A DNA stretch of 62,909 nt, counting the filler, from Globobulimina sp. (Eukaryota), in the NCBI GenBank assembly GCA_003354225.1. It is 19 parts of 19 records of this genome, joined end to end, with 100 filler letters (N's around TTAATTAATTAA, not from the genome) between each part and the next. Parts side by side here need not be neighbours in the genome. Positions count along the whole stretch, not along the records: positions 39,817 to 43,030 come from PIVH01003398.1; 18 more parts are not named here. One strand, written 5' to 3'. Each line of letters starts with the position of its first letter. The stretch's first letter is position 1. Both the position numbers and the translations under genes were made by a program. The notes under the pieces were generated by a model. That model saw nothing but the letters and a program-made list of their open reading frames with translations. It did no database searches and was not told where the DNA came from. This document shows, piece after piece, positions 38,468-59,596 of this stretch.

Positions 38468-38836
38468 AAGCACAAGCAAAATTTAATAAAAATTGCATTC
38501 AAAGTTAACTGCTGTATAAATTTCAGATTTTTTCGGGAAAAATATAGCCCAAAATGAAAATACTAAATACATAATATTCAATAATCCCCACCAAATCGAT
38601 CTGAATTTTCCTTGGCTTAAACTGAGTGGTCCTTGACTCTGATAAGAATCATTTAAAAGTGTATAAATCCAGCCAATCGATGCCAGCTAGTGAGTGATTA
38701 ATGCTTTTTTAGAATCATATATTGAGTGATCAATAGAGGCTGAACTGTTGCAAGAAACCACGTACAACCAACTATTCTCTTTTCATAAGCCATGCTTGGT
38801 TGCTCGCCAACTTAATTTTACTCTAAGCCTGAAACA

Positions 38837-39700
38837 ATGCCAAAGGACATAATTAATATTGTGTTTGCTCCCAAGAAGTTCAGTGCTGTTACGAGTGCAA
38901 ATGATATTATTACATGGGAACAAGCCAGGAAAAGAATGCATCAATTTCATTCAAAACCGTTTCTGATAGGTAACCCACAATTTATTAAACCACCTTTGAA
39001 ATATCCAAATAAAAAAGCAATCCCCAAAAATAAAATATTGCGCAATATAATATGTTTATGGTGGGGGGATATTACCAAACTTAACATCGAATCAATTGTG
39101 AATTCTGCAAATATTCAATTTAAAAATGGCGGTGGTGTTTGTGGCGCAATACATCGGCGTTCAGGAGATGAACTATATAAAGAGTGTGTTGCCAAATATC
39201 CAAATGGTGGTAACATCACTGATTGTATTATTACCAATGCGTATAAATTAAGCTGCAAATATGTAATTCATGCAATTGGTCCTGCTCAAATTGATTATTA
39301 TAAATTAAGTGTTACATATAAAAATGTATTAAAATTATGCATTCAAAACAATATTAAACAAGTTTGCTTTTGTTGTATTGGATGCGGTACACATAATCTT
39401 CCGATAGTGCAGGCTTCGAAAATTGCTGTTTATTCTGTTGTTAAATATCTCACTGAGCAGTATAATGATGGAAATAAAAATGATGACAGTGAGGATAAAA
39501 ATGTTGCTAAGCAATGTGATAAAAAAGAGGATAAAAATGAGGATGAGCACGAGCATAAAAACGATGACAAAAAAGAAGATAAAGACGACGTTAACGAAGT
39601 AAAGTTTAGATATCAATTTTTCGATAAAATTGTGTTTAATTGCTGGACTGAGATTGAATTAGATGCTTATAAATGGTGGTTGACTGAACAACTTGGTTAA
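38837..39700 (+). CDS. Macrodomain protein (MacroD-like ADP-ribose binding/hydrolase)
   Basis: GDITKL..IVNSAN...GGGVCGAIH, YVIHAIGP, FCCIGCG. Confidence 0.9.
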   Translation: MPKDIINIVFAPKKFSAVTSANDIITWEQARKRMHQFHSKPFLIGNPQFIKPPLKYPNKKAIPKNKILRNIICLWWGDITKLNIESIVNSANIQFKNGGGVCGAIHRRSGDELYKECVAKYPNGGNITDCIITNAYKLSCKYVIHAIGPAQIDYYKLSVTYKNVLKLCIQNNIKQVCFCCIGCGTHNLPIVQASKIAVYSVVKYLTEQYNDGNKNDDSEDKNVAKQCDKKEDKNEDEHEHKNDDKKEDKDDVNEVKFRYQFFDKIVFNCWTEIELDAYKWWLTEQLG

Positions 39701-39816
39701 GACTTAAGAGTAGATCNNNNNNNNNNNNNNNNNNNNNNNNNNNNNNNNNNNNNNNNNNNNTTAATTAATTAANNNNNNNNNNNNNNNNNNNNNNNNNNNN
39801 NNNNNNNNNNNNNNNN

Positions 39817-41835
39817 AAATGAACAACTTTTTACACATGCCAGTATGTCTAAGTTTATTTATTCAGTTATATATAAAAATAGATTAATGTGTAACTATGA
39901 CACGTTGCCAGGCACTCAATTCCGTTCCATGTATCCCTCTCTAGAAGATTCTCACAATGACATTCATGTTATTGTTGGTGGCAATGGTGGACAAATGGCA
40001 GGTGTAGCTTGGGCAGCATTTGACATTGTTTTTTGGTTACACCATGCCAATGTGGATAGGATTTATGAATCCTATTTAGTAATGGAACCGGATTCACAGA
40101 GGGAGTTTGCAAGGAATGACCGGAGTTTATACAATCGGAGATTAGAGCCGTTCAGAAAAGCAAATGGTGCCAGTTATACAGCTGGGGATGCTTTCAATAC
40201 TCGCAGTTTAGGATATGTCTATGATAGACTTATGGCGGCACCACGCCAACAGTTGCACGAGCCGCCAGTGTTATTAATGTTTGCTGGTGTCAAAATTAGT
40301 GAACTTGAAAGCAAATGTTATCAGATTCATGCCTTTATTTATGATAAAGCAAAATATAAAGTGCCAAAAAAAGATCCCATAAAAACCATTGATGACATGG
40401 CCAATTATTATGAGTCTGATAATTATGCCGGCGGTGTTGGCATTTTTGGCCGAGGAATGGAGTGCAAGACATGCAGAGAATCACCACCAAGGAATATTAT
40501 TATTGACATCAGTAAAACAGTAAAAACATTAAGGTACAGATTTTGCAATGTAATGTTATAAATCTTATAAAGCGTCGTAATGTTCAAATTGAATATCAAA
40601 TGAAAAAAAGTCATTAAAGAGCAGCAAAATTAATTTTTCAGCGTCAGAACGTGGTTGGAAAATTTTATGACGCTGAAAAATTAATTGTGGAGGTTCTTAA
40701 GTTTTTTTTATTTCAACATTCAAATAAAATCCAATGACTCTAACTGCTTTATAATATGTATGATATTTTAAGAATTTCTCGATACAATGCAGTAGCAAAG
40801 ATATATGTTTTAGAGACTACCGATGAGTCAAATCGATTGAAAAAATTAAAAGATACGCCATTGCCCACACCGATTATCACCGGTCCTTTATTTGACACTC
40901 GAGATAGAATTAAAAAATATGACAAACGCAATCGAAAGAAACAAAATAAACGCGAAGTAATGGCATTGCAGAAATATTTACAACGCTTTGGATATTATGA
41001 TATCGACAGCAATGCAATCAATGGCGATTATGACAGTGACACAGAAGTCGCAGTTAAAGATTTCCAGAAAGCCACTGGAGAGTTGAGGATCGATGGCGTG
41101 CTCGGAGTGAAAACAAAGGAACGCATAATGAAAATGAAGCGGTGTAATAATAAGGATGGTTTTGCCTCGAATAAAGTGCGTGATGTCGCGACTGATTATG
41201 AAAGCAGTTGGTACCGAGGCAAATATTCATTTTTATATGTCATTGGACAGATTCCTGGCTATTTACAGCTGGAAGCTGTACAGAAATGTATTCGTGCGGT
41301 CTGCGATGAATATACACGGAAAAGTAGAAATATATTGACTTTTGAAGAGGTAATACCGATGTCTGGAGATGACGATGACGCAAAAATTGATATAAGTTTT
41401 CGTTGGGAACGATTCAAAGATGACGACGATGTGTTGCAGTATGATGGGCCCGGCGGTATTTTAGGTCAAGCTGGGAATGGATTTGTTGAGTTTGATTTAG
41501 CAGAAAGATGGGTGATTGGAATGAGTGAGAGCGATGAAAAGGAATTGTCTGATATACAGGATGTGACAACGTGGAGGAGAGGACAACCGACAATATCATT
41601 ATATTACACTGCATTGCATGAATTGGGACATTGTTTAGGTTTGGATCATAGTGTGAATGTGGCGGATGTTATGAGTCCATGGTATAATCCGAAACAAAAA
41701 GAATTGTCGGTGAATGATGCACGCCGTTTAACCAAAATTGCTGTTTATGGACAAAGAGCATCGGGGGCGGATTTAAAGGTAAATAAAATGTATGATAGTG
41801 AGCCTTCGGATGATGAAGTTATCGATGCTCCGTAA
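39817..41835 (+). CDS. Tyrosinase (CuB site + C-terminal cap domain) fused to an M10 matrixin (pro-domain + catalytic domain); intron 40534-40772; 5' partial
   Basis: HNDIH...AAFDIVFWLHHANVDR, LGYVYD, CKTC. A phase-2 intron GTACAG...TTTTAAG joins this in frame to LQKYLQRFGY...AVKDFQ...DG, KRCNNKD, HELGHCLGLDHS and VMSPWY. Confidence 0.8.
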
Positions 41836-42197
41836 TGTATATAAAACATATAACAAATGTTTTATGCGTATTTTTGTGTGTTTTTGTATGGTTTAAAATG
41901 TGAAAATACTAAAAATTATTTTCTGAATACTCAAATGGTGGGTGGGTAATGGGTATCCATCATTGCGGTTCACCGTCAACACTCCCAAAACGATTTGCAG
42001 TGCTTTTTCGTCCAATGATTATAGATTGTTCAAGGGAGCATTTCTGCATTGTTGCGATTTATATATCCGAGTTCCTATAAAAAGAAATAATATATCCGAG
42101 TATATCCGAGGGAGTTATAATGAGAGGATACGTAAGTAATGTTTTTAAATACAATTCTTACATCGGTATGATTCAGTGTATTTATGATTGTTTTACC

Positions 42198-43030
42198 ATG
42201 TCGCAACAACACGAACAAGAGAATGATAAAAAAGTAGATAACAAAGTAGATAACAACGTAGATAACAAAGTAGATAACAAAGACAATAATTCAGTAAATC
42301 TATTGGAATTAGTTAGCATTTGTTATGATTTAGCTGCTCAATCTGGAATTAAAATATGTGAAATTCTCGAATCTGGTAATCTTCACGTTCACGACAAACA
42401 CAATAACGAAGACTATAAAAAGCAACCAATAAAAAATGTACATATGCCCAAATTAAATAAAAGTGTGACACTGATTGGTTTATCCTCATTTGAAGCAAAA
42501 GACCCACAAACTTTGGCAGATGTTGTGGTGCAAGAGCTCATTGAACAAGGTATACATTCAATATATCCAGATATCGTAATCAAAGGAGAAGAGAATCTTG
42601 AAAATATTTCAAATCAACGTGCCTACATAAAACATCATCGTATTAAAAATGTAAAAATATCCAAACCTTTGCCATTGAAATATTCACAGTTATTATCGAA
42701 ATATGCTCCGAATTTTGCGCATATGTATTTAGATTCAAATGACTTGGTTTTATGGATTGATCCCGTCGATGGGACTAAATGTTTTACGTTGGCCCCAAAA
42801 GACGAAGCAGCCAAACAATCCGTGACTTGTTTAATTGGCATTGCGTTGAAAGGCAGACCCATTGCAGCTGTAATAAATTGTCCTTTTGCTGTTGATACTA
42901 AAACTTATTTTGCAATTGTCAATATTGGTGTATTTGGTGTATATGATGAGCATATTTTAAATGCGAAATATTTAATAAATGAAAGAAAAAGGAATTTAAA
43001 TAGACGCTATATTGCAGCGAGTATGATTTA
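42198..43030 (+). CDS. Inositol monophosphatase family, 3'(2'),5'-bisphosphate nucleotidase-like, 3' partial
   Basis: DPQTLAD, KGEE, LWIDPVDGTKCF, VTCLIGIA. Confidence 0.85.
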
Positions 43031-43130: not shown

Positions 43131-46100
43131 TATATGAGATTTGATTAAAGGATAATTGGTCATATTTTGTATGTTTAGCTGCAAAATTGGCCAATCTGTC
43201 GACTTCGTCATTGAATTTATTATTATTATGCGATTTTATTTTTATAAATGATATAAATACGTTTGGTTTGTTTTGTTGTATTTGCATAAGTTTTATATAT
43301 ATATTTTCTATTAATACTTTAGTTTCGTTATATTTTGGATAGTTTTGGTTATTAATAAATTGGAGGAGTGGAAAGTTGTCAATATAGATTTTGTAATGGA
43401 TATGGGAGTTATTTGGAGCGTTTACAATATAATTTAGTATCATATGGACAGCCTCAATCTCTGCAGTGGTGATAGTTACTGGGATCTTGAAATAAAATGT
43501 CTGTTTGAACGCGTTTGGGTGGGATGGTTGGGACGGGATATAGATGGCAGCTCCTCCTTTTCCTGGATTTGGATCACAGGATCCATCGGTAAATGCAATG
43601 GTAATTTTGTTGTTGTTGATCATGGATGGATTTGCTGGACAGATATCGACATCAAAGTTTGCTGGGATTAATTTTAGGTTATATGTCGGTGACGAGGTCA
43701 CTTGCAATTTATTCATTTTATTGAAGTCCTGGGAGAGGGCTTTGATTGTATTGTTTTTCTGGCAATATTTTGTGGCAATTTCTAATGGATTTTTATTTAA
43801 ATTAGAGAATTTATTTGGTTTGGTTTTATTTGGTTTTCTGTATTGGTGGGATTGTATAGTTTTTTTGTATTTGATTAGGGCAATATATGTTTTATTTAGT
43901 GGGTGGTAGCTATCATTATAATAAACTCTGGCAAGTTGCCGCATCGTTAGGTAATGGGCTCTATATTTAATGGGTTCTATTTTTAGAAGGAATTGGAGGA
44001 TATCCATTGGCGAATCCAATCTGCAGGGAATCGCTAATCGGAGGAATTTATTTTGGAGGACTTTTAATATACTTTTGGAGTCATACGGGAAGTAATGTGA
44101 TAAGCCATATTCTATTCTGGATCGGGCGAGGGATTTATATAGGATTGCTATGGAGAGCGGGGACAGTTTTATGCCGGATTTCATTGTAAAAAAGAGCCGC
44201 CAGTAACTGCTCATAGTTTTGGCTTTTATTTTGGAGAAATGGGCATTGAAATTCAAGCGTTCATCAAACCACAATCCAAGATATCGAGCGGACTTTTTAT
44301 ATTGTATTGGAGTTTTAAGTATTGTATATTTGCTTATTTGGGATGTTTTATTCGAGATCAGATCAGTTTTATTTGTGTATTTAGGGTGGAGTTTGAGGTT
44401 GTTACTATGCGAGAAATTCATGGAGAGGCATTTGGATGGATTTATCATGAGCTGCCATTTAATGCACCAATCTCCGAAATTATTTAATTCTTTTTGGAGG
44501 AACTTATATCGGATCGAATCTTTGGTTCCAGGGCTTGTCCAAAAAGCAGTATCATCTGCAAAACAGGCAAAATGGACAAAATTTGGAAAGTTTATTTTAA
44601 AATCATTAGTAAAAATGATATATAGGATAGGAGACAGTGCAGACCCTTGTGGGACACCAATTGGTTGTGCTACCCAATGGGACTCTGCCTTTTTGGCAAT
44701 GACTTTGGTGTATCTTGTTTGTATGAATGAAGCAAGTACATTTAGGATATTTCCTTTTATTTTATTTTTGATTAATTTATATATCAAGCCATTATGCCAT
44801 ACACTGTCATAGGCTTTAGAGAAATCGGTGAATACAACGTCAGTGTCACTGACCATATCAAATGATGTTTGTATGTCAGTTATAAAAGTTGTTAACACAT
44901 CATCGCAGCATCTGTTTATCTGAAAGCCGCATTGATAGTTATTGAATATCTTGTTTTCTACACAGAAATGTTGAAGTCTGTTTGCTAGGATTTTTTCAAA
45001 AACTCTACCAAGGCAGGAAGATATTGCAATGGGTCTGTAGTTTTTAGGGTTGCTATGGTCTTTGTTTGGCTTTGGAATAGGTAGAAGATGAGAGAAGTTC
45101 CAGTAGCTGGGGAATATTCCTTTGGTCATACATTTATTAAACAAAGGAAGTAAGCAGTCAATAAGCGACTCACCACCATATTTTATCATTTGATTATGGA
45201 TTCTATCTGGTCCGTATGCTTTGTGTGTATCAAGGTTTCTTATTACTGATCGAATTTCGTATTTTAGTATTGGATCATTCAATATTTTATATTCATTATT
45301 TGGTATAGGGATATTTGTATTAATTCGTGAAGGAGTTTTGATTTTTGTTTTATTATTTTGAACAATTTTATCGTGCATTATATTATGAATATCATTTTTA
45401 TCATTTTCTGGTGAGTTTTTATGGTGTTTAAGGAATTCGGGGACAAACTTATTTATATATTTATGCCAATTATTATATTTATCACTTATTTTAGGTTTAG
45501 GAGGTCTGGTCATTGCCTCTTGCAATGCTGTTGCTTGTTGGTAAGGGTCAATTATATTAGTTTTATTTTTATAATTTAATGGAGGGATATTATTTGTATT
45601 GATTCCATTTGATTTATTATTTGATATGGTTCGCCAGAAACGGCGTCCATAGTCTTTACATGTTTGGATATATCTATTTATACGGTTATTATATTTTGAT
45701 TTGGCCACTTTAATCGCTCTTAATTTTTTCGATTGTAAAGCATTTAATATAGGTTTTAATCGCTTATATTTGGGGAAAATATGGAAATCAGTGGCATTTC
45801 GGCGTGCTTTTTTCTTCATTCTTTGGATCCGCCGCCTAAGACGTTTGCAGCGCTTTTTTAGTTTTTTTATTTTATTATTCCACCATGGTTTGTGGCCACG
45901 ATAGTAATATTTATACCCTATGGACTGTTCTGCAGTGTATAGGATAAGGAAAGTAAGCTGCTCAGTGTATACATTTGGATCTGTGTCAAAAATAGTGTCA
46001 TTTATATTCATTTCTAATGAAACTGCGTATTTGCTCCATTTTTTTGTATCGGATAGGTTCCACGTTTTTTTTGTTTCACTAAACCCGAAAACGTTCTCTA

Positions 46101-46344
46101 TTTCAAAGGAGGTGGCAATGGGAACGTGGTCCGAGCAGTTCTGGTCATATAGGGAATGGAGAATTGACCAATTTGTATGTTTTAAATTAGCAGAAATCAT
46201 AGTTAAATCAATCGCAGATTTGGTTTGGAATGATTTATGGATATGGGTATAGGATGGATTTATAATATTTAAAATTTGCATTCCAAGGTGGTTCAGGCCA
46301 TCAATGAAGTTATCTGATTCATTGGTGGATCGATTGCTGCCCCA
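43131..46344 (-). mobile_element. Non-LTR retrotransposon (LINE) ORF2: APE endonuclease C-terminus, reverse transcriptase and RNase H
   Basis: SAIDLT and CSDHVPI (APE); KAYGPD, NYRPIAISS, DFSKAYDSVWH, GVPQGSALSP, FADD, YLG (RT); FTDGS...AEIEA...YIDN...SH...NDEVDRLA (RNase H). More than 1050 codons with no stop. Confidence 0.95.
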
Positions 46345-46444: not shown

Positions 46445-48742
46445 ATCCTCATTTCTAGCTATCCAAACTGATGTATATCCTTTATTTTTTCTTTCTCCTT
46501 TGTGAGGATTAAAACGTACAAAAAAAGGAGTCAATACTAATATTGAGTTTTCTTCATCTTTTATGTTAAAATGAGCAACATTCTTAATACCCATCGTGCA
46601 TTTCCAATGTTGACCAATTTGAAGATCAACACAAAAATCTTTATCCTCATTGTTACTTGTAACTTCGAGATTTTCGCCAATTTCAGCATTAACAAAATTA
46701 GTCATGATCGCAGTCAAACCATTACTCATTAATTCCCAAAAACGTCTAAATAAATACTTTGTGTCACAATGACGTGCGTTTTCAACATCATACAATAATA
46801 ATTCCGTCATTGGGTTTTGATAAAATTGAAAATGTTTATACTGACGCAACTCCATTCTTAAACTGGATATTAGTATAATAAGAGGATTCAAATTATATTG
46901 AATAAAATGTTCGTTAACATTTTTTTGATGTTCATATTGCTCTTTATCAAAAATATTTGGACATTTTTGAAGTTTATAATTTTCTCCTGTTGGTCTTGCA
47001 CCAGGTGAAATTTGATTTCTTGATAAATTAGATTTATAATTAGGTGACATCACAATTCCGAATGAACCACTCATATTTGACCAAACATTCGAATGAAATC
47101 TACTGTAATATTTAGGTTTGATTCTTTTTTTTTTTGGATCGTATAACACTTCTAAACAAATCTTACCATTTGCTGTTGACAGTGCATCTGGATAATATCC
47201 ATTTATTTGAACAACACCTATATCTGCAGATTGATCAAATGCTTGTACTTTGAATCTCACTGAACAACTAACCATATCGTATTGTTCTGGTTTGTTACTA
47301 TCGAATGTAGTGTGAGGATATATTAATCTACGAAACTGTATGCCATTTATTGGTACATCAACTAATTTTTGACGAGCTTCATGTGTTTCAAATATTGTTT
47401 TGTAATGAATGATCATATCAGCATGTAATAAAATATCTGCTTGATTTCGATATGAGATTAAATAATATGCAGTTTGACCATTAATTGGGGCAGATAATAA
47501 ACAGTAATAATCAAAAGAATCACAAACCGTTATTTCGTTATTTAAATCTGCAATATTTCTCATTTTATTTATCACTTCGGTAACGAATTGCGGAATCTTG
47601 AAACAAATTTTTGGTTTCCAGTCTGCAGATGGCAACAAACTTTTGACAAAATATTCAGCCTTGTTAATTCGAAATGCAATTATGCTGCTTAATATTACAC
47701 ACCAATAACATAATTTAATTGAACCATTGAAAAAACTGACTAAACATGTACTATGATATAGTTGATGAACACCATCGTTAACTACTTTCATTTTCACACA
47801 ATTTTTATTGCAACAACAAAATGCTTCATACTTATTTAAAAGAATGTTGCACTCATCATTCATACATTGCTTGTCATGCGCTTTTTGTTTTTTACCAGTC
47901 CAATCTAATGCTCCAACAGGAAGACCAAATACTGGATAATCAAATAACGAGGATATTACAGTTGAATTAACCTCCAAATAATTTTTATTAATTTTATCAA
48001 ACAATCGAATTAGAAGCACATGTTTATTGCCACGATTTTCAATTGATAAAATCGGATCAATTAGATACATCTGTTTTGTTTGAACATGAGTGGGAACAAC
48101 ACGCGATATTTGGTCTGAAATAATGTTATTTGGAATGAACATATCTTGCTGCATTTCCCGATATAATACTACATTGTTGTTTGCTGTGTCTACCACATCT
48201 AATTTTCTTTCATCGAAAATTGATTCATCTGCATGATATTTGTTCATGGAAAATACCACATTATTATTATTATTGTCTGACGGTGATGGTGACCTCGGAT
48301 AATATTCTAATTTCCTTTTTCTGTTTGTTGATGGTAATGTGATAGTCGCAAAAGAATCTGCATCCAATAATTTATGTCTCTTTCTGGGTGGTTCATATGA
48401 AATTGAAGCATCTGATTTAAAATTGCGGTATAACTGTTTTTCAGAAGCATCTTTGCTTTCCCATTTTTTTTTAAGATGAAATACAAGATTACGAGTACAG
48501 TTTTTTTTTTTTTCGTTTAACTGCTTAAATAAAAGATGATCAGTTGATGTTTCTAATTGTTGTTCTTTCTCATCTGTCACTGGCTGCCCTGTTTCTTCCT
48601 TCAGTTGTTGCATTAAATACGTTTTGTATAATAAATGATAAAATTTAGGTTTGTCATCTTCATTATTGTTCGCTTGCCAGGTAAAATATTGCTCAGAGAT
48701 AGCATCTACTTGTTCAGCAATCAAATGCATAGTCAAAGGCAT
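46445..48742 (-). CDS. PHD-like finger + divergent ALKBH5-like 2OG-Fe(II) dioxygenase domain protein (last few codons cut off)
   Basis: C4HC3-like pattern CMNDEC..CCCNKNC..YHSTC..CYWC. C-terminal HCDTKYLFRR, LQIG, SILVLTPFFVRFNPH and TSVWIAR align by eye to ALKBH5 HVDPIHIFER, LCFG, SVTVLSGYAADEITH and RAVIILR. Confidence 0.62.
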
Positions 48743-48998
48743 ATTATTAACACTTTTCAATAATTGATCGAAGATATGTTATTACAATAATAGAAGATAT
48801 GTGTATAAATATAGATTATGATTACAATAATAGAAGATATGTAAGGTTCATAATTATACGACAGGATAGGGACTAGGCTAATGAAAATTATCAATTATTA
48901 AGGGAATTTATTATAAAAAAATTAAGCTAATGTCATTAAAACAAATTAATACATAAATAGGTGAAAAAAAAACACATAAATAACATCAGGGTACAATA

Positions 48999-53070: not shown

Positions 53071-54992
53071 GCTGTGCTATTTAATAAATGCATCTCTACT
53101 CGTCCATTTCTATGGACCGTGGTCAGCATAGGTATTACTTGCGCATTCCGTCGATGACTTCCTGTCATAGGTTCTAGGAAAATCTCTGTCCCCTCTTCGG
53201 GTATAATGTGTCCTTCATACGAATATAATTTCCCTATAACATTATATACCGAATTTCCTCCCGAAATACTGACTTTTTTACTCAACCGTACGAACCCACT
53301 AAATGGCTCAGGTGGGGGGCCCATTTGGATCTTTTTATCTCCTAATATAATGTGGTTCATTTTACGTTCGACGATTGGGGGGTTTAATGTCCAAAAGTCT
53401 AACCCCAAAATGGTCAAAGGTACTGTATTATCGTCATCAATAATATGCATAGTGTGCTCATAAATAGTAGACCCGATTTTAAAATGTATCATTGCATGTC
53501 CCAATATGGGATAACGTTTTAAATGTCCAATAATTTCAACATGTTTGCAACGACATAACATTTCTAAATCGCCCTTCATTTTAAGAAACACTGATTTTTG
53601 CATATATGACAAAGCTGACGTAATACTTAAAATGGTCGCTAATTGAAAGTACGGTTTATGTTCTTCATACTCGCAATATACTATGGGTATTTCATTAGTT
53701 TCCAATTCTAAAATGTTTTTTAACTGTAGCTCATGAGCATGTATAGCACTGATGGGCGCTGTTTTCTTTAGCGTCCCTTTATCGCATAATACGTCAATCG
53801 GCGCGCGCTCGTAATGTAGTTGAACAATCGGCCATTCACTCGGTACTTCGCTGATTCCACTTTTTCGCAATTGCTTTTCTACTATACGGCGCTGTTCTCG
53901 TGCGTCAATAAATCCCTGCGCTTCTTTTTGTTTCAACTCGGCATAACTACGCATTAGGTTATATTGGTGTTTCCTTTCCTTAATTTTACCTTGATTTAAA
54001 TTTGACTGTTTCCTTGACTGTTGATGGCAATTGTGTGATATGGTGTCATGCCCTTCGTCCAATCGTTCCGGCAAATCAATATTCCTTTCCTTCCGATAAT
54101 TTTCCGATACTAGAGTATGATGGTCCACGGGTACTGATATAATATCGGTACCTCCTTCTCCTGTGTCAGAAACATGGTTGGGATATGATTTACCTTCCCG
54201 ACATTTAGGCTTTGGCATAACTTCTATGTTGTCCTGGATCGCGCCTGACTGCGCTATTTGCTCAATTACCATATCACTTTCGCTTAATCTCAGTTCTCTC
54301 TGACTCGAGAGACTACTACTTTGATCTACACAGTCTAGGACTTGTTTGTCATTGCATAATGTTTTCATTAACCTTTTATCTGATCTTGATTGCATATTTT
54401 GGTTCTTTTTCTGCGCTAGGGATGCGACTGTGTCATTTGCTTCCATGCCCAATGATCCTGTTGTACTACCCGATACTTCAGTTATTTCAGGAACATTATG
54501 ATTAACTACAGGCAATACATTAGGTAATGGTACACTTTGAATACCCGTATGCAACTCATTAGTACTTGCATCACTTGTACAATAGGTACAGTTAGCACCC
54601 TTTTGAACATGATCTTCTACATTTATTATTTTGTTTTTGGACTCCAAATTGCTACTGTATAAGGTCAATTGTTTATGTCTCTCTTTAATTTGATAATCTA
54701 ATTGTTCAGCACTATTTCGCATTTTTACTACACCATCATTTACTTCAGTAAATGCGTCATGCAAACGAGTAACTACAGCATCAAAACAATCATGATTATC
54801 ATTTAATTTTTTCGAGCATTTCTTCATTATCATTTGTATTTCCAATAGATCTTCTATTTTCTGTTCCAGGGCTGCCATAGGTTGGATCTCCACTTGTCCA
54901 TTTCCTATAAAAAAATGTGTGACCTTCCTCCATATTGATAATATAAAATAATGTACTACTAAATAATATAATATAATACAATCTTTAATCAT
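53071..54992 (-). CDS. Gag/protease-like ORF of an LTR retrotransposon (3' partial)
   Basis: Coiled-coil N-terminus and the retropepsin C-terminal motif PILGHAMIHFKIG...LTILGLDFW. It starts 140 bp downstream of a PBS. There is no intact D-[TS]-G motif and no CCHC knuckle. Confidence 0.65.
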
Positions 54993-55133
54993 ATCTCATC
55001 AGTCGTCGCATTTGGGTAAAAAGGTCTTCAAAATTGGACTCCACTGTCACAGTGAGTTCAAACAGTATGAAACACAATATACACAATATACAGTCTCACA
55101 CAGCAACACAAACCGGAATCCAAGAAAAACCGA

Positions 55134-56383: not shown

Positions 56384-59300
56384 AATTATTTGTGTCATAT
56401 CCAACACCAAAGCGAGAGTACACCCGGACCCCCAATTTTTAATTTTATTTAGTATTTGTTTGCAAATATGTGCTATATTATGAACTAATGAGTGTTTACT
56501 GCGGTTTGTGGATTGCAAAACAATCAGAAATATTTCTGGTAATATTATATGATCAATACCTTTGCAAACGGTTTCAATCATATACGAATCTGAATATTGC
56601 TGTTGTAAATCAATTAGTTGTTGATTTGTTATCTGTTTACCCACCAAAACATGTAATAATATTAGAATAATGCTGCAATCGTTTGATTCCATGAATGGTT
56701 TCAATGATTGAATAAATGCCATGATGGTCCCGGAATCTCTGAGTTTGAGCAAGTTATTTTCTTCATCTTTGTTATCTTTGTTAAATATTGACACACTTAA
56801 TAATAACACATATAATGCTGTGAATAGATCATGTTTATTATTGCATATTTTGTCGACATATAAAGGGCTTTGTAACAACGACACAATCATTTTTAGTGAA
56901 ATTGTGTGATTTGTTTTATTAATCTCTATATCGAGCAACATTTTTAGCAATAAATTGATTTTTGTTTTTGTTAAAATATTATTCTCGTTTGCATTATCAT
57001 GCAATTGTGAATCGACACTAACTTTCATTCCAATAATAGTATCAACGACTAATTTAATTTGATTTTCGTTATTTGACTGCAATAAACATTTTAATAAATT
57101 AATTGCTGGGTTTAATAAATTGATTGAAAAATCATTGTTGTCGACTTGCGATATAATTTGGTAAACCATACAGCATGAATTTGTTAAATATTTGACCAAT
57201 TTATCCTTTTCTTTATGAATAGTAACTAGATTACAGAGCGATTTGTATAAACATTGATACGTCTCAATTGAAATACTTTTTGTGTTCCATATTTTAACAG
57301 TTTTGTTATCTAAAAACACTGCCTCAAATATAGTACGTTGTAATTTATTTGTAATCATTCCACGTTTACAATGATTGTGAAATCCGCATAATCGAAATAA
57401 TATGGAAACTGTGCTCACATTCGCTAAATGTATCACTTGTTTCAATGAGTACGCAAAAACATGGATGCTGTTACAATACGAACTAACTGCAACTAACGGC
57501 ATTAACAAATTATTAGTACTGCTATTATGGCCATTATTTTCTTCAATCAGTTCACCAATTAATTCTAAAATACGATTCAATGAATATGTCGTTTGTGATG
57601 ATTCGATAATGTTGAATAATAATGGAATTCCACCCATTTCTAACAATGTTGCTGATAATGTTCGACAGCGACACACTGACAAATCACCATACAACTTTAT
57701 AGTTTCTTCGTTTATTAAATTAATTAAATTATTTTTGTTATTTGAGCCTATATTATTTGCCGATAATGAATATATTAAATCAGTGAATGGTTCATCAGCA
57801 TATACCAATCGATCTACATTTAATTTTAATTTTTCATGATATAATTTAGAAATAACGAATGGTTTCAACGCCTTAGCAAACAACTGCAAATTGGATAATT
57901 TCCATTCTGTATTAGAAATTGATAAATCATTTTGATGTCTACCTATGGGAAATATCGCTGATGGGCATAATACCAACGAGGATGACAAATTTATCCATTC
58001 CTTTAATTCCCCATTTAAAAATACATCCAAATATAAACAATTTGATTTATTTAATTTATAACGATGTCGATTATGATTTGAGTTGAACACAAACGTAAAA
58101 CATTGATAGGTTCCAACAGAAATTCCAACTTTTTGTAACGGTATTTTTTGCAAAGAATTACTGTTTCCAATGCAAATTAACATTTCTGTTCCATTTATAA
58201 TACATTCATAATAATTTGTATTGGATGTGTTGAATGTCCATAAACTTATTGGTTTATCCAACATTGTTATCTGCACAAACATATTTAATGTACACTCCAT
58301 ATCACATCCTTTCAATTCGAAATACGAATAACCGGTATAATTATGTTCAAATTCAATAACTGGTTCGTTGTTTTCATTATGGAGTATCTTCAACAATGTA
58401 TCTGCGATCAATGCATCATATTGGTACCGCTGACGCTTATGACTCGCATTAATTTCAATCTGTTTTTGTGTAATCAAATTTGATATTTTATGCAATGATA
58501 AAATTCTTTTTATATCACTGTTTCTGGAGGCTGTCCCAATTATACTTAATAAAAATATATAATCCGGAATCAGCGAGTATTGTGTCAATATTTTATTTTT
58601 TTTATGGTTATTACCATGCTGCATATGCTTTATATCCGTGTCGGATATTTTAGTCAACCAAACTGCGATGTGATCACACAAAATATTAATGAAATCAACA
58701 GCGGCCAACCTATTACGATTTAAATGGCGTTTCACGAAATTCTGAAATAAACATAATCCAAATTGTTGAAATGTTTGCGGTGATTGAACCAATAAATTCA
58801 ATGCAATCACTGCAAAACGTGGGTAATAAAATTGTCGCGTGATTGGATATTGTAACTGGTACAAGTCCGATGATTGTAAGCTGTAATGATTTAAATCGAT
58901 ACTTAACTTGATATTAAATTGCTGTTCTTTTGTTGTATTTGGTATGAAATCTAAGGAGATCCATAATATCCATTGAAATATAAACTGTTTAAATCTATTT
59001 TTATCGTTACAGCAAGCACATAATGTATTTATTTGTGCGTCAAATTTTTTAATAAATGTTTGAGATTCAAGCAATTTGGAAGAAGTTGTTTGATTTCTGG
59101 ACATTGATAATAATGTTAATATACATTCTTGGACATATATTAATTGTATTTCATCCATATTGTGAGCATTATTTATATTTGCAATGTACGGCTTATTATA
59201 TTTACATTCAAAACAAAATAAAATGGTTTCAAATCCGTCAATAATACAAAATGAATGCTGCGTTTGTTTATATTTTTTGGCGATCAATTGTAAATATTTT

Positions 59301-59596
59301 AAAATGAATATTTTTGATAAAACAGACGTTTCTATATTTTGTAAAATACGATTTAATAAAATAACAATTGCATGACAGTAATAAGAAAATATTGATTTAT
59401 CTTCGTTATCACTATAAAGTGTATCCAATATCGTTGATATGACATTAAATATTTGCGTGTGATATTTTGCTGTTTTTAACAATGATAATAATGTACATAT
59501 TCCATCTAATCCTAATTCAATACAATTAGATGTATGGTATTCGGTGAGCAATGATAAAATATTTAAAATGGATAGCATTTGATGTGTTGCTAATGA
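56384..59596 (-). CDS. Internal fragment of a BEACH-family protein (LYST/neurobeachin-like ARM + ConA-like region)
   Basis: More than 1060-codon Leu/Ile-rich helical frame; ConA-like segment (LDVFLNGELKE...WKLSNLQLF) followed by TLLEMGGIPLLFNIIE. Confidence 0.62.

What the first reader, a model, noticed from the sequence alone, without database searches (positions are those of the whole stretch)
39817..41835. Pro-tyrosinase fused to a pro-matrix metalloprotease: candidate self-activating oxidase/protease zymogen
Seen: the two ORFs the track lists separately join through a phase-matched GT-AG intron (40534-40772, with CTAAC about 30 nt before the acceptor), giving ...KTLR-ISRYNAVAKIYV.... The product has a tyrosinase CuB site (HNDIH, HHANVD), the YxY core-ending motif and a C-terminal domain with CKTC. 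It then has a PG-binding-like pro-domain, a cysteine-switch variant KRCNNKD (compare PRCGVPD), HELGHCLGLDH and a Met-turn. Established: fungal pro-tyrosinases such as Aspergillus MelB have a CxxC-bearing cap that must be removed by proteolysis, and matrixins are held latent by a cysteine switch. Inference: one polypeptide may carry the latent oxidase and its own activator, for example for cross-linking test cement or organic lining, or for defence. I do not know of a described protein with this architecture.
Basis: partly seen in the sequence, partly recalled or inferred. Interest (0 to 1): 0.8.

Follow-up and report, generated by a model that had tools for sequence, protein, structure and literature searches.

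The report
Tyrosinase fused to a latent metalloprotease
One spliced gene of this protist encodes a capped, latent copper oxidase (tyrosinase) joined to a latent matrix-metalloprotease; the same fusion is conserved in many protist lineages and may be an oxidase that carries its own activating protease.

Summary
The 239-nt GT-AG intron (40534-40772) is spliced out in assembled contigs of three public runs from two studies. A 736-aa foraminiferal protein reads straight across the junction. The gene is cut at the contig's 5' end, so the CuA half of the tyrosinase is missing here.

The architecture (tyrosinase core, C-terminal cap with invariant Phe and CxxC, MMP prodomain, M10 catalytic domain) is not unique. 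It is a conserved protist family: 9 of 9, 27 of 49 and 35 of 40 proteins in three searches. Named species are foraminifera, diplonemids, a euglenid, dinoflagellates, a pelagophyte, a ciliate and a green alga.

The prodomain zinc-blocking residue is Cys in the window's clade and Asp in the rest. Relatives lack signal peptides; many start with MG or a C2 domain, so a cytosolic, membrane-tethered location is likelier than secretion.

Self-activation is plausible but untested. No functional study turned up; one 2016 figure legend lists these domains beside tyrosinase domains.

The parts
39817..39842 (+). Last 26 nt of an upstream exon (..NEQLFTHA, then the first base of a Ser codon). The contig begins here, so the CuA half of the tyrosinase is not in the window.
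   Evidence: The N run ends at 39816. GTATGT follows at 39843. The loose-end consensus of RNA-like contigs before 39912 matches this stretch at 22-23 of 26 letters, by my own comparison.
39843..39911 (+). Intron of 69 nt, GT..AG, in frame and without a stop codon, so it reads through as ORF.
   Evidence: Contigs of X2, X3 and X5 leave the window at 39912. The residues it would encode do not align with any homologue. GC is 26% against 40% in the exons, and the spliced product aligns to P0001 without a gap here.
39912..40533 (+). Exon holding the CuB site (HNDIH 39953-67, HH 40040-45), the YVY end of the core (40214-22), and most of the cap domain with the candidate placeholder Phe (40445-47) and CKTC (40463-74).
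   Evidence: Pfam Tyrosinase E 4e-13. Alignment with 9 full-length fusion proteins. Across the family Phe is present in 47 of 50 rows and each Cys in 49 of 50.
40534..40772 (+). Intron of 239 nt, GT..AG, phase 2, CTAAC at 40740-44. It holds a 45-nt imperfect inverted repeat (40605-49 / 40665-709).
   Evidence: Contigs in X2, X3 and X5 skip it exactly, while X1 has an unspliced contig. GC is 26%. Inverted repeat.
40773..40896 (+). Last strands of the tyrosinase cap domain (ISRYNAVAKIYVLETT...TPLPTPIITGPLFD).
   Evidence: Aligns without gap or overlap directly after ..KTLR in all 9 full-length relatives. GP.F is nearly invariant.
40954..41124 (+). MMP prodomain (PG_binding_1 fold).
   Evidence: Pfam PF01471 E 2.6e-13, residues 61-117 of the exon's translation. 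The family profile is collinear with proMMP-1 1su3_A residues 7-247.
41137..41157 (+). Cysteine-switch variant KRCNNKD (Cys codon 41143-45).
   Evidence: Seen. The column is Cys in 16, Asp in 31 and a gap in 3 of 50 family rows. The Cys rows lie on one side of one branch of the protease tree.
41233..41736 (+). Matrixin (M10) catalytic domain with HELGHCLGLDH (41617-49) and the Met-turn Met (41671-73).
   Evidence: Pfam PF00413 E 4.9e-20. Across 50 rows: His1 50, Glu 46, His3 50, Met 50.
41833..41889 (+). Stop codon TAA (41833-35) and a short 3' UTR. Transcript-like contigs end at 41889.
   Evidence: records 19 and 25 end at 41889; X2, X3 and X5 have no depth beyond 41897.

Best explanation
Shown: 39817-41835 is the 3' two-thirds of one spliced gene. 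Its product is a type-3 copper oxidase (tyrosinase) core, then a C-terminal cap domain carrying an invariant Phe and a CxxC, then a matrixin prodomain with a cysteine switch, then a complete M10 catalytic domain. It belongs to a conserved, uncharacterised protist family with this fixed domain order.

Inferred: the protein is made latent twice over. The cap Phe plugs the di-copper site, as Phe454 does in Agaricus PPO4. The prodomain Cys (Asp in other clades) blocks the catalytic zinc. It probably sits on the cytosolic face of a membrane, because relatives have MG... or C2 N-termini and no signal peptide. When the switch opens, the matrixin cuts an inter-domain linker in cis or in trans. That frees the oxidase from its cap, so the oxidase carries its own activator.

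My confidence in the gene structure and family membership is about 0.97. My confidence in self-activation as the working mechanism is about 0.4.
For: - Splicing: contigs of three runs from two studies join 40533 to 40773.
- The spliced 569-aa product has one open frame and is 71% identical (395 of 555) to foraminiferal P0001 residues 168-732, with no gap at either junction.
- The fusion recurs: 9 of 9 'longer' hits, 27 of 49 scanned representatives and 35 of 40 near-length hits. All 105 two-part proteins held have the order Tyr then MMP.
- Catalytic residues are kept. In the 32-row alignment the CuA/CuB His columns hold His in 29-31 rows and the thioether Cys column holds Cys in 31. In the 50-row alignment the HExxHxxGxxH His columns hold His in 48-50 rows, the Glu column in 46 and the Met-turn column in 50.
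- Latency devices are kept. In 50 rows the cap Phe is present in 47 and each CxxC Cys in 49. The family profile aligns to latent abPPO4 through residue 469, which includes Phe454 and Cys462-465, but only to residue 353 of the activated form. Prodomain plus catalytic domain are collinear with proMMP-1, pro-stromelysin and pro-matrilysin.
- The switch column holds only the two zinc-ligand residues known from metzincin zymogens, Cys or Asp (passages of PMC9629494).
- Coupling hint: the two rows whose copper ligands have decayed (P0123, P0192) have also lost the protease Glu, 2 of 2. Among the 46 rows with intact copper sites only 2 have lost it.
Against: - No cleavage, activity or localisation was measured.
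- No structural model could be obtained, so the position of the Phe over the copper site and of the Cys on the zinc is inferred from alignment only.
- The cap domain alone gives no significant match to any solved chain (best E 0.91). It matches Pfam Tyrosinase_C only below the curated cut-off, in 6 of 11 members with best E 2.1e-4.
- The closest solved relatives by sequence are mollusc hemocyanin units, whose equivalent domain is never removed.
- Two rows (P0109, P0188) lost the protease Glu but kept the copper site.
- One relative (P0200) has tyrosinase plus cap and no protease.
- 0 of 28 prokaryotic tyrosinase loci have an M10 gene within 3 kb, so there is no independent neighbourhood link.
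- The window's own N-terminus is unknown.
- The foraminiferal MGGLCPK starts do not fit the strict myristoylation pattern.
- The library type of the sequencing runs is not on record.
Confidence: 0.42

Rival explanations
1. Two enzymes on one chain work side by side on a common target. An example would be trimming and oxidative cross-linking of a protein layer such as an organic lining, cyst wall or plug. The protease does not control the oxidase. The cap opens by another route, or stays in place as in hemocyanins.
For: - Both active sites are conserved.
- Other oxidative or cytoskeletal modules join the same chain in some members: a haem peroxidase in P0189, and cofilin after the protease in P0019.
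- The nearest solved relatives are hemocyanin units with a permanent cap.
- P0109 and P0188 keep the copper site without a protease Glu.
Against: - The fixed order and the retention of two latency devices are not needed for plain co-localisation.
- The copper site and the protease Glu were lost together in 2 of 2 decayed members.
Confidence: 0.25
2. The control runs the other way. The capped oxidase is a sensing or anchoring extension of the protease propeptide. A trace of oxidase activity makes quinones that modify the switch Cys and release the protease, which is the real effector.
For: - The tyrosinase and cap sit exactly where an extended propeptide would sit, N-terminal to the prodomain.
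- Thiol-modifying agents open the MMP cysteine switch. This is established knowledge; the passage of PMC9629494 read cites Van Wart and Birkedal-Hansen 1990.
- After prodomain removal the anchored N-terminal part and the free catalytic domain would separate. This is inference from the domain order.
Against: 31 of 50 family rows have Asp, not Cys, at the switch. Quinones do not alkylate Asp, so this cannot be the family's general mechanism. It remains possible for the Cys clade that holds the window's gene.
Confidence: 0.1
3. It is a secreted enzyme for building or hardening the test cement or organic lining, or for extracellular defence. This is the role the first reader proposed.
For: - Classical MMPs and many tyrosinases act outside the cell (established knowledge).
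- The nearest named relatives are foraminifera.
- The window's own N-terminus is not known, because the contig is cut at 39817.
Against: - 45 of 46 fused relatives have no hydrophobic N-terminal segment. 19 of 46 start MG followed by small residues, and 13 of 46 fit the myristoylation pattern.
- 6 of 49 scanned representatives carry an N-terminal C2 domain and one carries an EF-hand.
- The invariant CxxC 'copper grappler' is described for tyrosinases that load copper themselves (passages of PMC4157443).
- The family also occurs in naked flagellates and algae without tests.
Confidence: 0.1
4. There are two separate genes, as the ORF track lists them: a truncated tyrosinase ending near 40561 and a metalloprotease starting at the ATG at 40756.
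For: An in-frame stop lies at 40559-61 and an ATG at 40756. Many short database entries hold only the protease part.
Against: - Spliced contigs in three runs.
- The cap domain would be cut in two.
- The short entries lie mostly on 1-3 kb contigs.
- 105 of 105 two-part relatives are single chains.
Confidence: 0.02

Closest known systems
Fungal latent pro-tyrosinases (Agaricus bisporus PPO4, PDB 4OUA; Aspergillus oryzae MelB, PDB 3W6Q/3W6W)
   Same: - Di-copper core with a Cys two residues before the second CuA His (thioether).
- YxY/YG end of the core.
- A beta-rich C-terminal cap with a Phe followed a few residues later by CxxC.
- No signal peptide.
- The family profile aligns through Phe454 and Cys462-465 of 4oua_B and through residues 324-534 of 3w6q (passages of PMC4157443).
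   Different: - Here the cap is followed on the same chain by a complete pro-matrixin. In fungi the activating protease is unknown and is encoded elsewhere.
- Phe-to-Cys spacing is 6 residues here against 8 in abPPO4.
- Pfam Tyrosinase_C is matched only below its cut-off.
Molluscan hemocyanin functional units (for example PDB 8TNV, 1JS8, 3L6W)
   Same: - Best sequence matches among solved structures: a single unit at E 2.7e-19, against 5.7e-12 or weaker for chains named tyrosinase.
- Same Cys-x-His motif.
- The alignment runs on into the beta-sandwich domain, where the family's IFG aligns with hemocyanin's ILGG.
   Different: Hemocyanins are secreted oxygen carriers made of 7-8 tandem units with a permanent cap. 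Here there is one unit, no signal peptide and a fused protease.
Minimal pro-MMPs (matrilysin MMP-7, PDB 2MZE; proMMP-1, PDB 1SU3)
   Same: Three-helix prodomain (PG_binding_1), a zinc-blocking Cys in an R-C-x-x-x-D context, HExxHxxGxxH, a Ser after the third His, and the Met-turn. Collinear profile match with E 3.6e-36 to 1su3_A residues 7-247.
   Different: - No signal peptide in relatives.
- The switch reads KRCNNKD rather than PRCGxPD.
- The two His of the structural-zinc site (HAF and DAHFD in MMPs, motifs recalled from memory) read LGQA and FVEFD here. That site was not tested further.
Karilysin of Tannerella forsythia and astacin zymogens (aspartate switch)
   Same: In 31 of 50 family rows the switch residue is Asp. 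Karilysin and the astacins likewise use an Asp where MMPs use Cys (passages of PMC9629494). Karilysin catalytic domains match the family profile at E 3.7e-29.
   Different: Karilysin is a secreted bacterial enzyme. From recall, not from any call, its propeptide is short, whereas the family keeps the full PG_binding_1 prodomain. The window's own gene is of the Cys type.
Arthropod prophenoloxidase cascade (proPO plus a clip-domain serine protease activator)
   Same: Works alike in principle: a latent type-3 copper oxidase with a Phe placeholder is unlocked by limited proteolysis (established knowledge; the placeholder in Manduca proPO is mentioned in PMC4157443).
   Different: This is not a member. 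Arthropod proPO belongs to a different type-3 copper lineage, its activator is a separate serine protease, and the system is extracellular. Here oxidase and metalloprotease are one chain and probably intracellular.

Membership tests
Tyrosinase / type-3 copper protein (Pfam PF00264) | Match to the family model above the curated cut-off | tested here: met
   50.7 bits against a cut-off of 22.6, covering profile positions 165-211 of 214 only, because the contig is cut. Full-length relative P0001 scores 102.9 bits over 2-212 of 214.
Tyrosinase / type-3 copper protein (Pfam PF00264) | Three CuB histidines (H-x3-H ... H) | tested here: met
   HNDIH at 39953-67 and the second His of HH at 40043-45. 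The three columns hold His in 48, 49 and 49 of 50 rows.
Tyrosinase / type-3 copper protein (Pfam PF00264) | Three CuA histidines and the thioether Cys (C-x-H) | not testable with these tools
   This part of the window's gene lies upstream of the contig end at 39817 and on no other piece of the window. In relatives the His columns hold His in 29-31 of 32 rows and the Cys column holds Cys in 31 of 32.
Latent pro-tyrosinase with a removable C-terminal cap (Pfam Tyrosinase_C, PF18132) | Match to the C-terminal domain model | tested here: inconclusive
   The window's piece gives no hit. P0045 scores 18.3 bits and P0189 17.3 bits against a cut-off of 26.9. 6 of 11 cap segments hit with best E 2.1e-4. 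The cap-only profile finds no solved chain.
Latent pro-tyrosinase with a removable C-terminal cap (Pfam Tyrosinase_C, PF18132) | Placeholder aromatic residue followed by a CxxC loop | tested here: met
   GIFGRGMECKTC (Phe 40445-47, Cys 40463-65 and 40472-74). Phe is present in 47 of 50 rows and each Cys in 49 of 50. The profile aligns to latent 4oua_B up to residue 469. That the Phe sits in the copper site is inferred, not shown.
Latent pro-tyrosinase with a removable C-terminal cap (Pfam Tyrosinase_C, PF18132) | Activation by proteolytic removal of the cap | not testable with these tools
   Needs protein biochemistry.
Matrixin, peptidase family M10A (Pfam PF00413) | Match above the cut-off, with HExxHxxGxxH and a Met-turn | tested here: met
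   72.5 bits against a cut-off of 24. HELGHCLGLDH at 41617-49 and Met at 41671-73.
Matrixin, peptidase family M10A (Pfam PF00413) | Prodomain with a cysteine switch (PRCGxPD) | tested here: met
   PG_binding_1 scores 50.4 bits against a cut-off of 23. The motif reads KRCNNKD: R, C and D are kept, P and G are not. Collinear with solved pro-MMPs.
Matrixin, peptidase family M10A (Pfam PF00413) | Structural zinc site (His ligands in the HAF and DAHFD motifs) | tested here: inconclusive
   The corresponding text reads GILGQAGNGFVEFDLAERW, with no His. The MMP motifs are recalled from memory and were not aligned residue by residue here.
Matrixin, peptidase family M10A (Pfam PF00413) | Secretory signal peptide (classical MMPs) | tested here: not met
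   The window's N-terminus is unknown. 45 of 46 fused relatives have no hydrophobic N-terminal segment by a Kyte-Doolittle scan.
Tyrosinase-proMMP fusion family of protists (unnamed) | Order core, cap, prodomain, M10 on one chain, continuous across the cap | tested here: met
   Spliced contigs. Gap-free alignment across the junction. Sister to P0001 with SH-aLRT 99.

The most novel reading that the evidence does not exclude
The family is a one-chain, intracellular phenoloxidase cascade, a protist counterpart of the arthropod proPO system. The protein waits at the cytosolic face of membranes, held there by an acyl or C2 anchor. Both of its enzymes are locked in the reducing, low-calcium cytosol. 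Membrane damage lets in Ca2+ and oxidant, which opens the Cys or Asp switch of the matrixin. The matrixin then uncaps the tyrosinase, and quinone cross-linking seals or walls off the wound. Such a device would suit large, fragile single cells such as foraminifera and siphonous algae.
Probability: 0.13. Interest if true: 0.85.

Novelty: new variant of a known kind. Interest (0 to 1): 0.6.

Why it matters
Eukaryotic tyrosinases are made latent and are unlocked by proteolysis. For the fungal enzymes the responsible protease is still unknown (PMC4157443, passages read).

A natural, widely conserved fusion of a capped tyrosinase with a latent metalloprotease offers a direct test system for how such oxidases are switched on. 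It needs only one recombinant protein and three point mutants.

The family also shows matrixins in an unexpected setting. They have no signal peptide and carry acyl or C2 anchors, and within one family the zinc-blocking residue alternates between Cys and Asp.

It also points to melanin-type or quinone chemistry in foraminifera, diplonemids, dinoflagellates and algae, where almost nothing is known about it.

Tried and rejected
- Whole genome: none is held for this window, so paralogues and the missing 5' exons could not be sought. No other piece of the window holds them.
It was accepted once but the job was interrupted. There is therefore no model and no fold search.
- Cap domain against solved structures: the window piece alone gave 0 hits. 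The cap-only profile A3 gave a best E of 0.91, which is chance.
- Metagenome scan with the protease exon: 84 pattern matches, none confirmed.
- Prokaryote scan: A3 was too variable to search with. A2 found 28 loci, all matching only the tyrosinase core (query residues up to 302). 0 of 28 have an M10 domain within 3 kb by the family HMM. The scan used a single CuB pattern, so it is a weak negative.
- ESM Atlas: the best hit scored 0.75, a plant-type MMP cluster, and was not informative.
- Earlier findings of this scan: nothing for this place or sequence. One unrelated bacterial matrixin note turned up.
- Sequencing runs: no RNA holder is listed and the kinds of all runs are 'not on record'. I read X2, X3 and X5 as RNA-like only because they lack both introns and the intergenic DNA, while X1 has them.
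- Literature: searches for tyrosinase with 'matrix metalloproteinase' and foraminifera, Peptidase_M10, ZnMc, matrixin with 'domain architecture', and the organism names found no functional study. The only trace is the Fig. 1a legend of PMC4707469. The figure itself and the supplements were not seen, so I cannot say in which organism, or whether on one chain, these domains were drawn.
- Promoter and terminator scan downstream of the gene: at chance level and bacterial-type in any case.
- Rejected idea: I looked by eye for a canonical MMP cleavage motif (Pro at P3, hydrophobic P1') in the conserved GPLF and LREPP linkers and found no clear match. I make no claim about the cut site.
Full report
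**What the window is.** The 62,909-base window is not one stretch of genome. It holds 36 runs of exactly 44 N, in pairs around the six-frame stop linker TTAATTAATTAA. These divide it into about 19 pieces of roughly 3.2 kb. The finding lies on the piece 39817-43030. GC content is 34.5%. No whole genome is held for the window.

**The observation.** The two stop-to-stop ORFs are 39773-40561 and 40744-41835 on the + strand.
- HNDIH (39953-67)
- HHANVD (40040-57)
- YVY (40214-22)
- CKTC (40463-74)
- KRCNNKD (41137-57)
- HELGHCLGLDH (41617-49)
- the Met-turn Met (41671-73)

Pfam gives Tyrosinase at 50.7 bits on the first ORF, covering profile positions 165-211 of 214 only. On the second ORF it gives PG_binding_1 at 50.4 bits and Peptidase_M10 at 72.5 bits. 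All three scores are above the curated cut-offs.

The proposed intron has GT at 40534-35, AG at 40771-72 and CTAAC at 40740-44. It is 239 nt long and phase 2: AG from the first exon plus A from the second make the Arg codon.

**Is the splice real?** Three lines of evidence say yes.

1. Public sequencing runs.
- Five runs hold the stretch.
- When X1, X2, X3 and X5 were laid on 39818-42100, one contig each in X2, X3 and X5 skips exactly 239 nt with GT..AG ends. The joint is listed as 40528/40768 with 5 ambiguous letters, which equals 40533/40773.
- X1 has a contig running unspliced through 40122-40824, and X1 also covers the intergenic DNA beyond 41897.
- X2 and X3 come from the same sample as X1. 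X5 comes from a second study.
- The library kinds are not on record. I read X2, X3 and X5 as RNA-derived because they lack both introns and the flanks.

2. Full-length relatives.
- A search for longer relatives of the second ORF returned 9 proteins of 636-781 aa, and all 9 carry PF00264, PF01471 and PF00413.
- In their alignment the first ORF ends (..KTLR) in the column directly before the one where the second begins (ISRYN..), with no gap and no overlap.

3. The spliced product.
- Joining the exons inside a script gives 1,710 nt with a single open frame.
- The 569-aa product is 71% identical (395 of 555 aligned residues) to residues 168-732 of P0001, the closest relative. There is no gap at either junction.
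- The introns are 26% GC and the two long exons about 40%.

**A correction at the 5' end.**
- The first ~31 residues of ORF1 align with nothing.
- The RNA-like contigs of X2, X3 and X5 leave the window at 39912 and continue with other letters.
- Those letters match window 39817-39842 at 22-23 of 26 positions. This is my own comparison of the 30-letter consensus.
- GTATGT follows at 39843.
- So 39843-39911 is a second intron of 69 nt. It is in frame and stop-free, which is why it read as ORF.
- The contig starts 26 nt before the end of the preceding exon. The CuA half of the tyrosinase is therefore not in the window, on this piece or on any other.
- The transcript-like contigs end at 41889, 54 nt past the stop codon.

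**The architecture is a family, not a one-off.**
- An exhaustive phmmer search with the protease exon found 1,839 proteins at E up to 0.001.
- From the 150 listed I scanned 48 with one or two matched stretches, plus P0010. I left out the hits with 4-12 PG_binding repeats and most short fragments.
- 27 of the 49 carry both Tyrosinase and Peptidase_M10. Six of them have an N-terminal C2 domain and one has a C-terminal EF-hand.
- A search with full-length P0001 gave 40 hits at E up to 1e-20, and 35 carry both domains.
- With family-specific HMMs, 105 of the 213 proteins then held have both parts. All 105 have the tyrosinase part first, once two insignificant stretches are discounted.
- One relative, P0200, has tyrosinase and cap only.

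Named sources:
- Foraminifera: Bolivina argentea, Rosalina sp., Nonionella stella
- Diplonemids: Diplonema papillatum (KAJ9451471.1, 'Polyphenol oxidase 2'), Flectonema neradi
- Euglenid: Ploeotia vitrea
- Dinoflagellates: Gymnodinium smaydae, Durusdinium trenchii
- Pelagophyte: Aureococcus anophagefferens (XP_009035104.1)
- Ciliate: Pseudocohnilembus persalinus
- Green alga: Ostreobium quekettii (CAD7699846.1)

A pattern scan of prokaryote genomes found 28 loci. All match only the tyrosinase core, and none has an M10 domain within 3 kb.

The window's gene is sister to P0001 from the Bolivina data set (SH-aLRT 99).

**Anatomy of the oxidase half.**
- In the 32-row alignment A2 each CuA and CuB histidine column holds His in 29-31 rows. 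The Cys two residues before the second CuA His, the thioether position of eukaryotic type-3 copper proteins, is present in 31 of 32 (PMC4157443 passages).
- The window keeps all three CuB histidines and the YxY end of the core.
- After a linker of median 15 residues comes a domain of about 135 residues. In it one Phe (47 of 50 rows) and two Cys (49 of 50 each) are almost invariant in the motif IFGxxGxxCxxC.
- In Agaricus PPO4 the placeholder Phe454 is followed by the CXXC 'copper grappler' Cys462-465, on the loop after strand beta-11 (PMC4157443).
- The family profile aligns with the latent form 4oua_B through residue 469, but with the activated form only to residue 353. It aligns with Aspergillus pro-tyrosinase 3w6q through residue 534, and with keyhole-limpet hemocyanin unit h through its beta-sandwich.
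- Pfam's Tyrosinase_C model is matched only weakly: 6 of 11 cap segments, best E 2.1e-4, below the cut-off. The cap-only profile finds no solved chain.
- By sequence the closest solved proteins are molluscan hemocyanin units (E 2.7e-19 for a single unit), ahead of the chains named tyrosinase (5.7e-12 or weaker).
- The intron 40534-40772 splits this cap domain. That is itself an argument against two genes.

**Anatomy of the protease half.**
- The family profile is collinear with solved zymogens: proMMP-1 1su3_A residues 7-247 at E 3.6e-36, pro-stromelysin-1 and pro-matrilysin. It also matches karilysin catalytic domains at 3.7e-29.
- HExxHxxGxxH and the Met-turn are kept. In 50 rows the first and third His are present in 50, the second His in 48, Glu in 46 and Met in 50.
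- The column of the window's switch Cys holds Cys in 16 rows, Asp in 31 and a gap in 3. No other residue occurs.
- On a quick maximum-likelihood tree of the protease part the Cys rows form one side of one branch (SH-aLRT 94). That is one change on the protease tree and two on the tyrosinase-part tree. The switch column itself was left in the alignment.
- Cys and Asp are the two residues known to block the catalytic zinc in metzincin zymogens. MMPs use Cys; karilysin and most astacins use Asp (PMC9629494 passages).
- I take this alternation as good evidence that the prodomain really is a latency device here.
- The two histidines of the MMP structural-zinc site, as I recall those motifs, are not evident in GILGQAGNGFVEFDLAERW. 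I did not test this further.

**Where the protein works.**
- The window's own N-terminus is unknown.
- Among 46 fused relatives picked by two motif patterns, 19 start with MG followed by small residues, often Cys. 13 fit the PROSITE-style myristoylation pattern as I recall it. The foraminiferal MGGLCPK starts do not fit it.
- Only one (P0148) has a hydrophobic N-terminal segment.
- Others begin with a C2 domain.
- One carries C2, tyrosinase, a haem peroxidase and the pro-matrixin on one chain (P0189).
- One protease-only relative ends in a cofilin/ADF domain (P0019).
- These features point to the cytosolic face of membranes and to calcium, not to the secretory pathway. This is inference from sequence.

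**How it most likely works.**

What is shown:
- one mRNA
- two intact active sites
- two conserved latency devices
- a fixed domain order

What is inferred: the matrixin, once its switch opens, cuts a linker next to the cap and so unlocks the oxidase.

In favour of a functional tie:
- The two family members whose copper ligands have decayed (P0123, P0192) have also lost the protease Glu. P0192 has also lost the cap Phe and CxxC.
- Among the 46 rows with intact copper sites only 2 have lost the Glu.
- These are small numbers, and the rows are related.

Against it:
- There is no biochemical evidence of any kind.
- Hemocyanins keep an equivalent cap permanently.
- Two rows keep the oxidase without a protease Glu.
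- One relative lacks the protease altogether.

I put self-activation at about 0.4. A side-by-side bifunctional enzyme gets about 0.25. Control in the reverse direction, with quinone attack on the switch Cys, gets about 0.1; it cannot hold for the Asp clade. An extracellular cement or lining role also gets about 0.1.

**Comparison with what is known.**
- The gene is a member of the tyrosinase family on its CuB half and of the matrixin family.
- It works like a fungal pro-tyrosinase and like a minimal pro-MMP.
- The combination on one chain, the lack of a signal peptide and the Cys/Asp alternation set it apart.
- The database entries are unannotated or generically named.
- In five literature searches I found no functional or descriptive study of the fusion.
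- The only trace is the Fig. 1a legend of PMC4707469. It lists a peptidoglycan-binding domain, a zinc metalloprotease domain and an EF-hand among the domains of tyrosinase-domain proteins, without comment in the passages I read. I could not see the figure or the supplements.
- PMC4157443 states that the protease that activates mushroom tyrosinase is of unknown origin and type. This is why a natural fusion is of interest.
- PMC6678240 mentions a dopachrome-conversion (yellow) homologue in Reticulomyxa filosa. That is a lead that foraminifera may run melanin-type chemistry.

**Verdict.**
- The fused reading is right.
- The claim of uniqueness is wrong.
- The extracellular role is unlikely.
- The self-activation idea remains a good, testable hypothesis.
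- I rate the gene a new variant of known kinds, with interest 0.6.

Noticed in passing
window 1-62909: The window is about 19 contigs of roughly 3.2 kb in order of falling length, joined by N44-TTAATTAATTAA-N44 spacers (36 N runs of 44). Neighbouring 'genes' across a spacer are not neighbours in the genome.
   Followed up: yes
window 42081-43028 (+): The downstream gene on the same contig has an inositol monophosphatase family domain (PF00459, E 1.6e-15). It is cut by the contig end. Its N-terminal part holds five copies of a 12-nt tandem unit (42213-42289, encoding KVDN repeats).
   Followed up: partly
window 38816-39700 (+): A Macro-domain protein (PF01661, E 3e-25) with an acidic, Lys-rich tail lies on the preceding contig.
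   Followed up: no
window 43131-46344 (-): The next contig is almost wholly one ORF of a non-LTR retrotransposon: endonuclease remnant, reverse transcriptase (E 5e-32) and RNase H.
   Followed up: no
window 56384-59596 (-), 26556-28913 (-), 46445-48778 (-), 53071-54995 (-): Four long open frames (1071, 785, 778 and 641 aa) have no Pfam match at E 1e-5.
   Followed up: no
window 40605-40709 (inside the 239-nt intron): There is an imperfect 45-nt inverted repeat (76% complementary, 15 nt apart). In run X5 a separate 254-nt contig at high depth (89.6) matches 40676-40713 on the minus strand. This may be a small dispersed repeat sitting in the intron.
   Followed up: no
P0189, P0019, P0064, P0090 (relatives): Other modules join the same protease. 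P0189 is C2 + tyrosinase + haem peroxidase + pro-matrixin. P0019 is pro-matrixin + cofilin/ADF. P0064 is TIM21 + M10. P0090 has an EF-hand after the protease.
   Followed up: partly
P0123 and P0192 (relatives): Two family members have lost most copper ligands and also the protease catalytic Glu. P0192 (Pseudocohnilembus) has lost the cap Phe and CxxC as well. They look like doubly dead pseudo-enzymes that are still encoded.
   Followed up: partly
window 39817-39842 against runs X2, X3, X5: The 26-nt exon fragment at the contig edge differs from the transcript-like contigs at 3-4 of 26 letters, while the rest of the gene differs at about 1%. The cause could be contig-end error, an allele or a paralogue.
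   Followed up: no
ETO30126.1 (P0213) and other short hits: Database entries holding only prodomain plus protease lie mostly on 1-3 kb contigs. One is named 'NLP/P60 protein, partial [Reticulomyxa filosa]'. They may be fragments or intron-split models of the same fusion family rather than stand-alone proteases.
   Followed up: no
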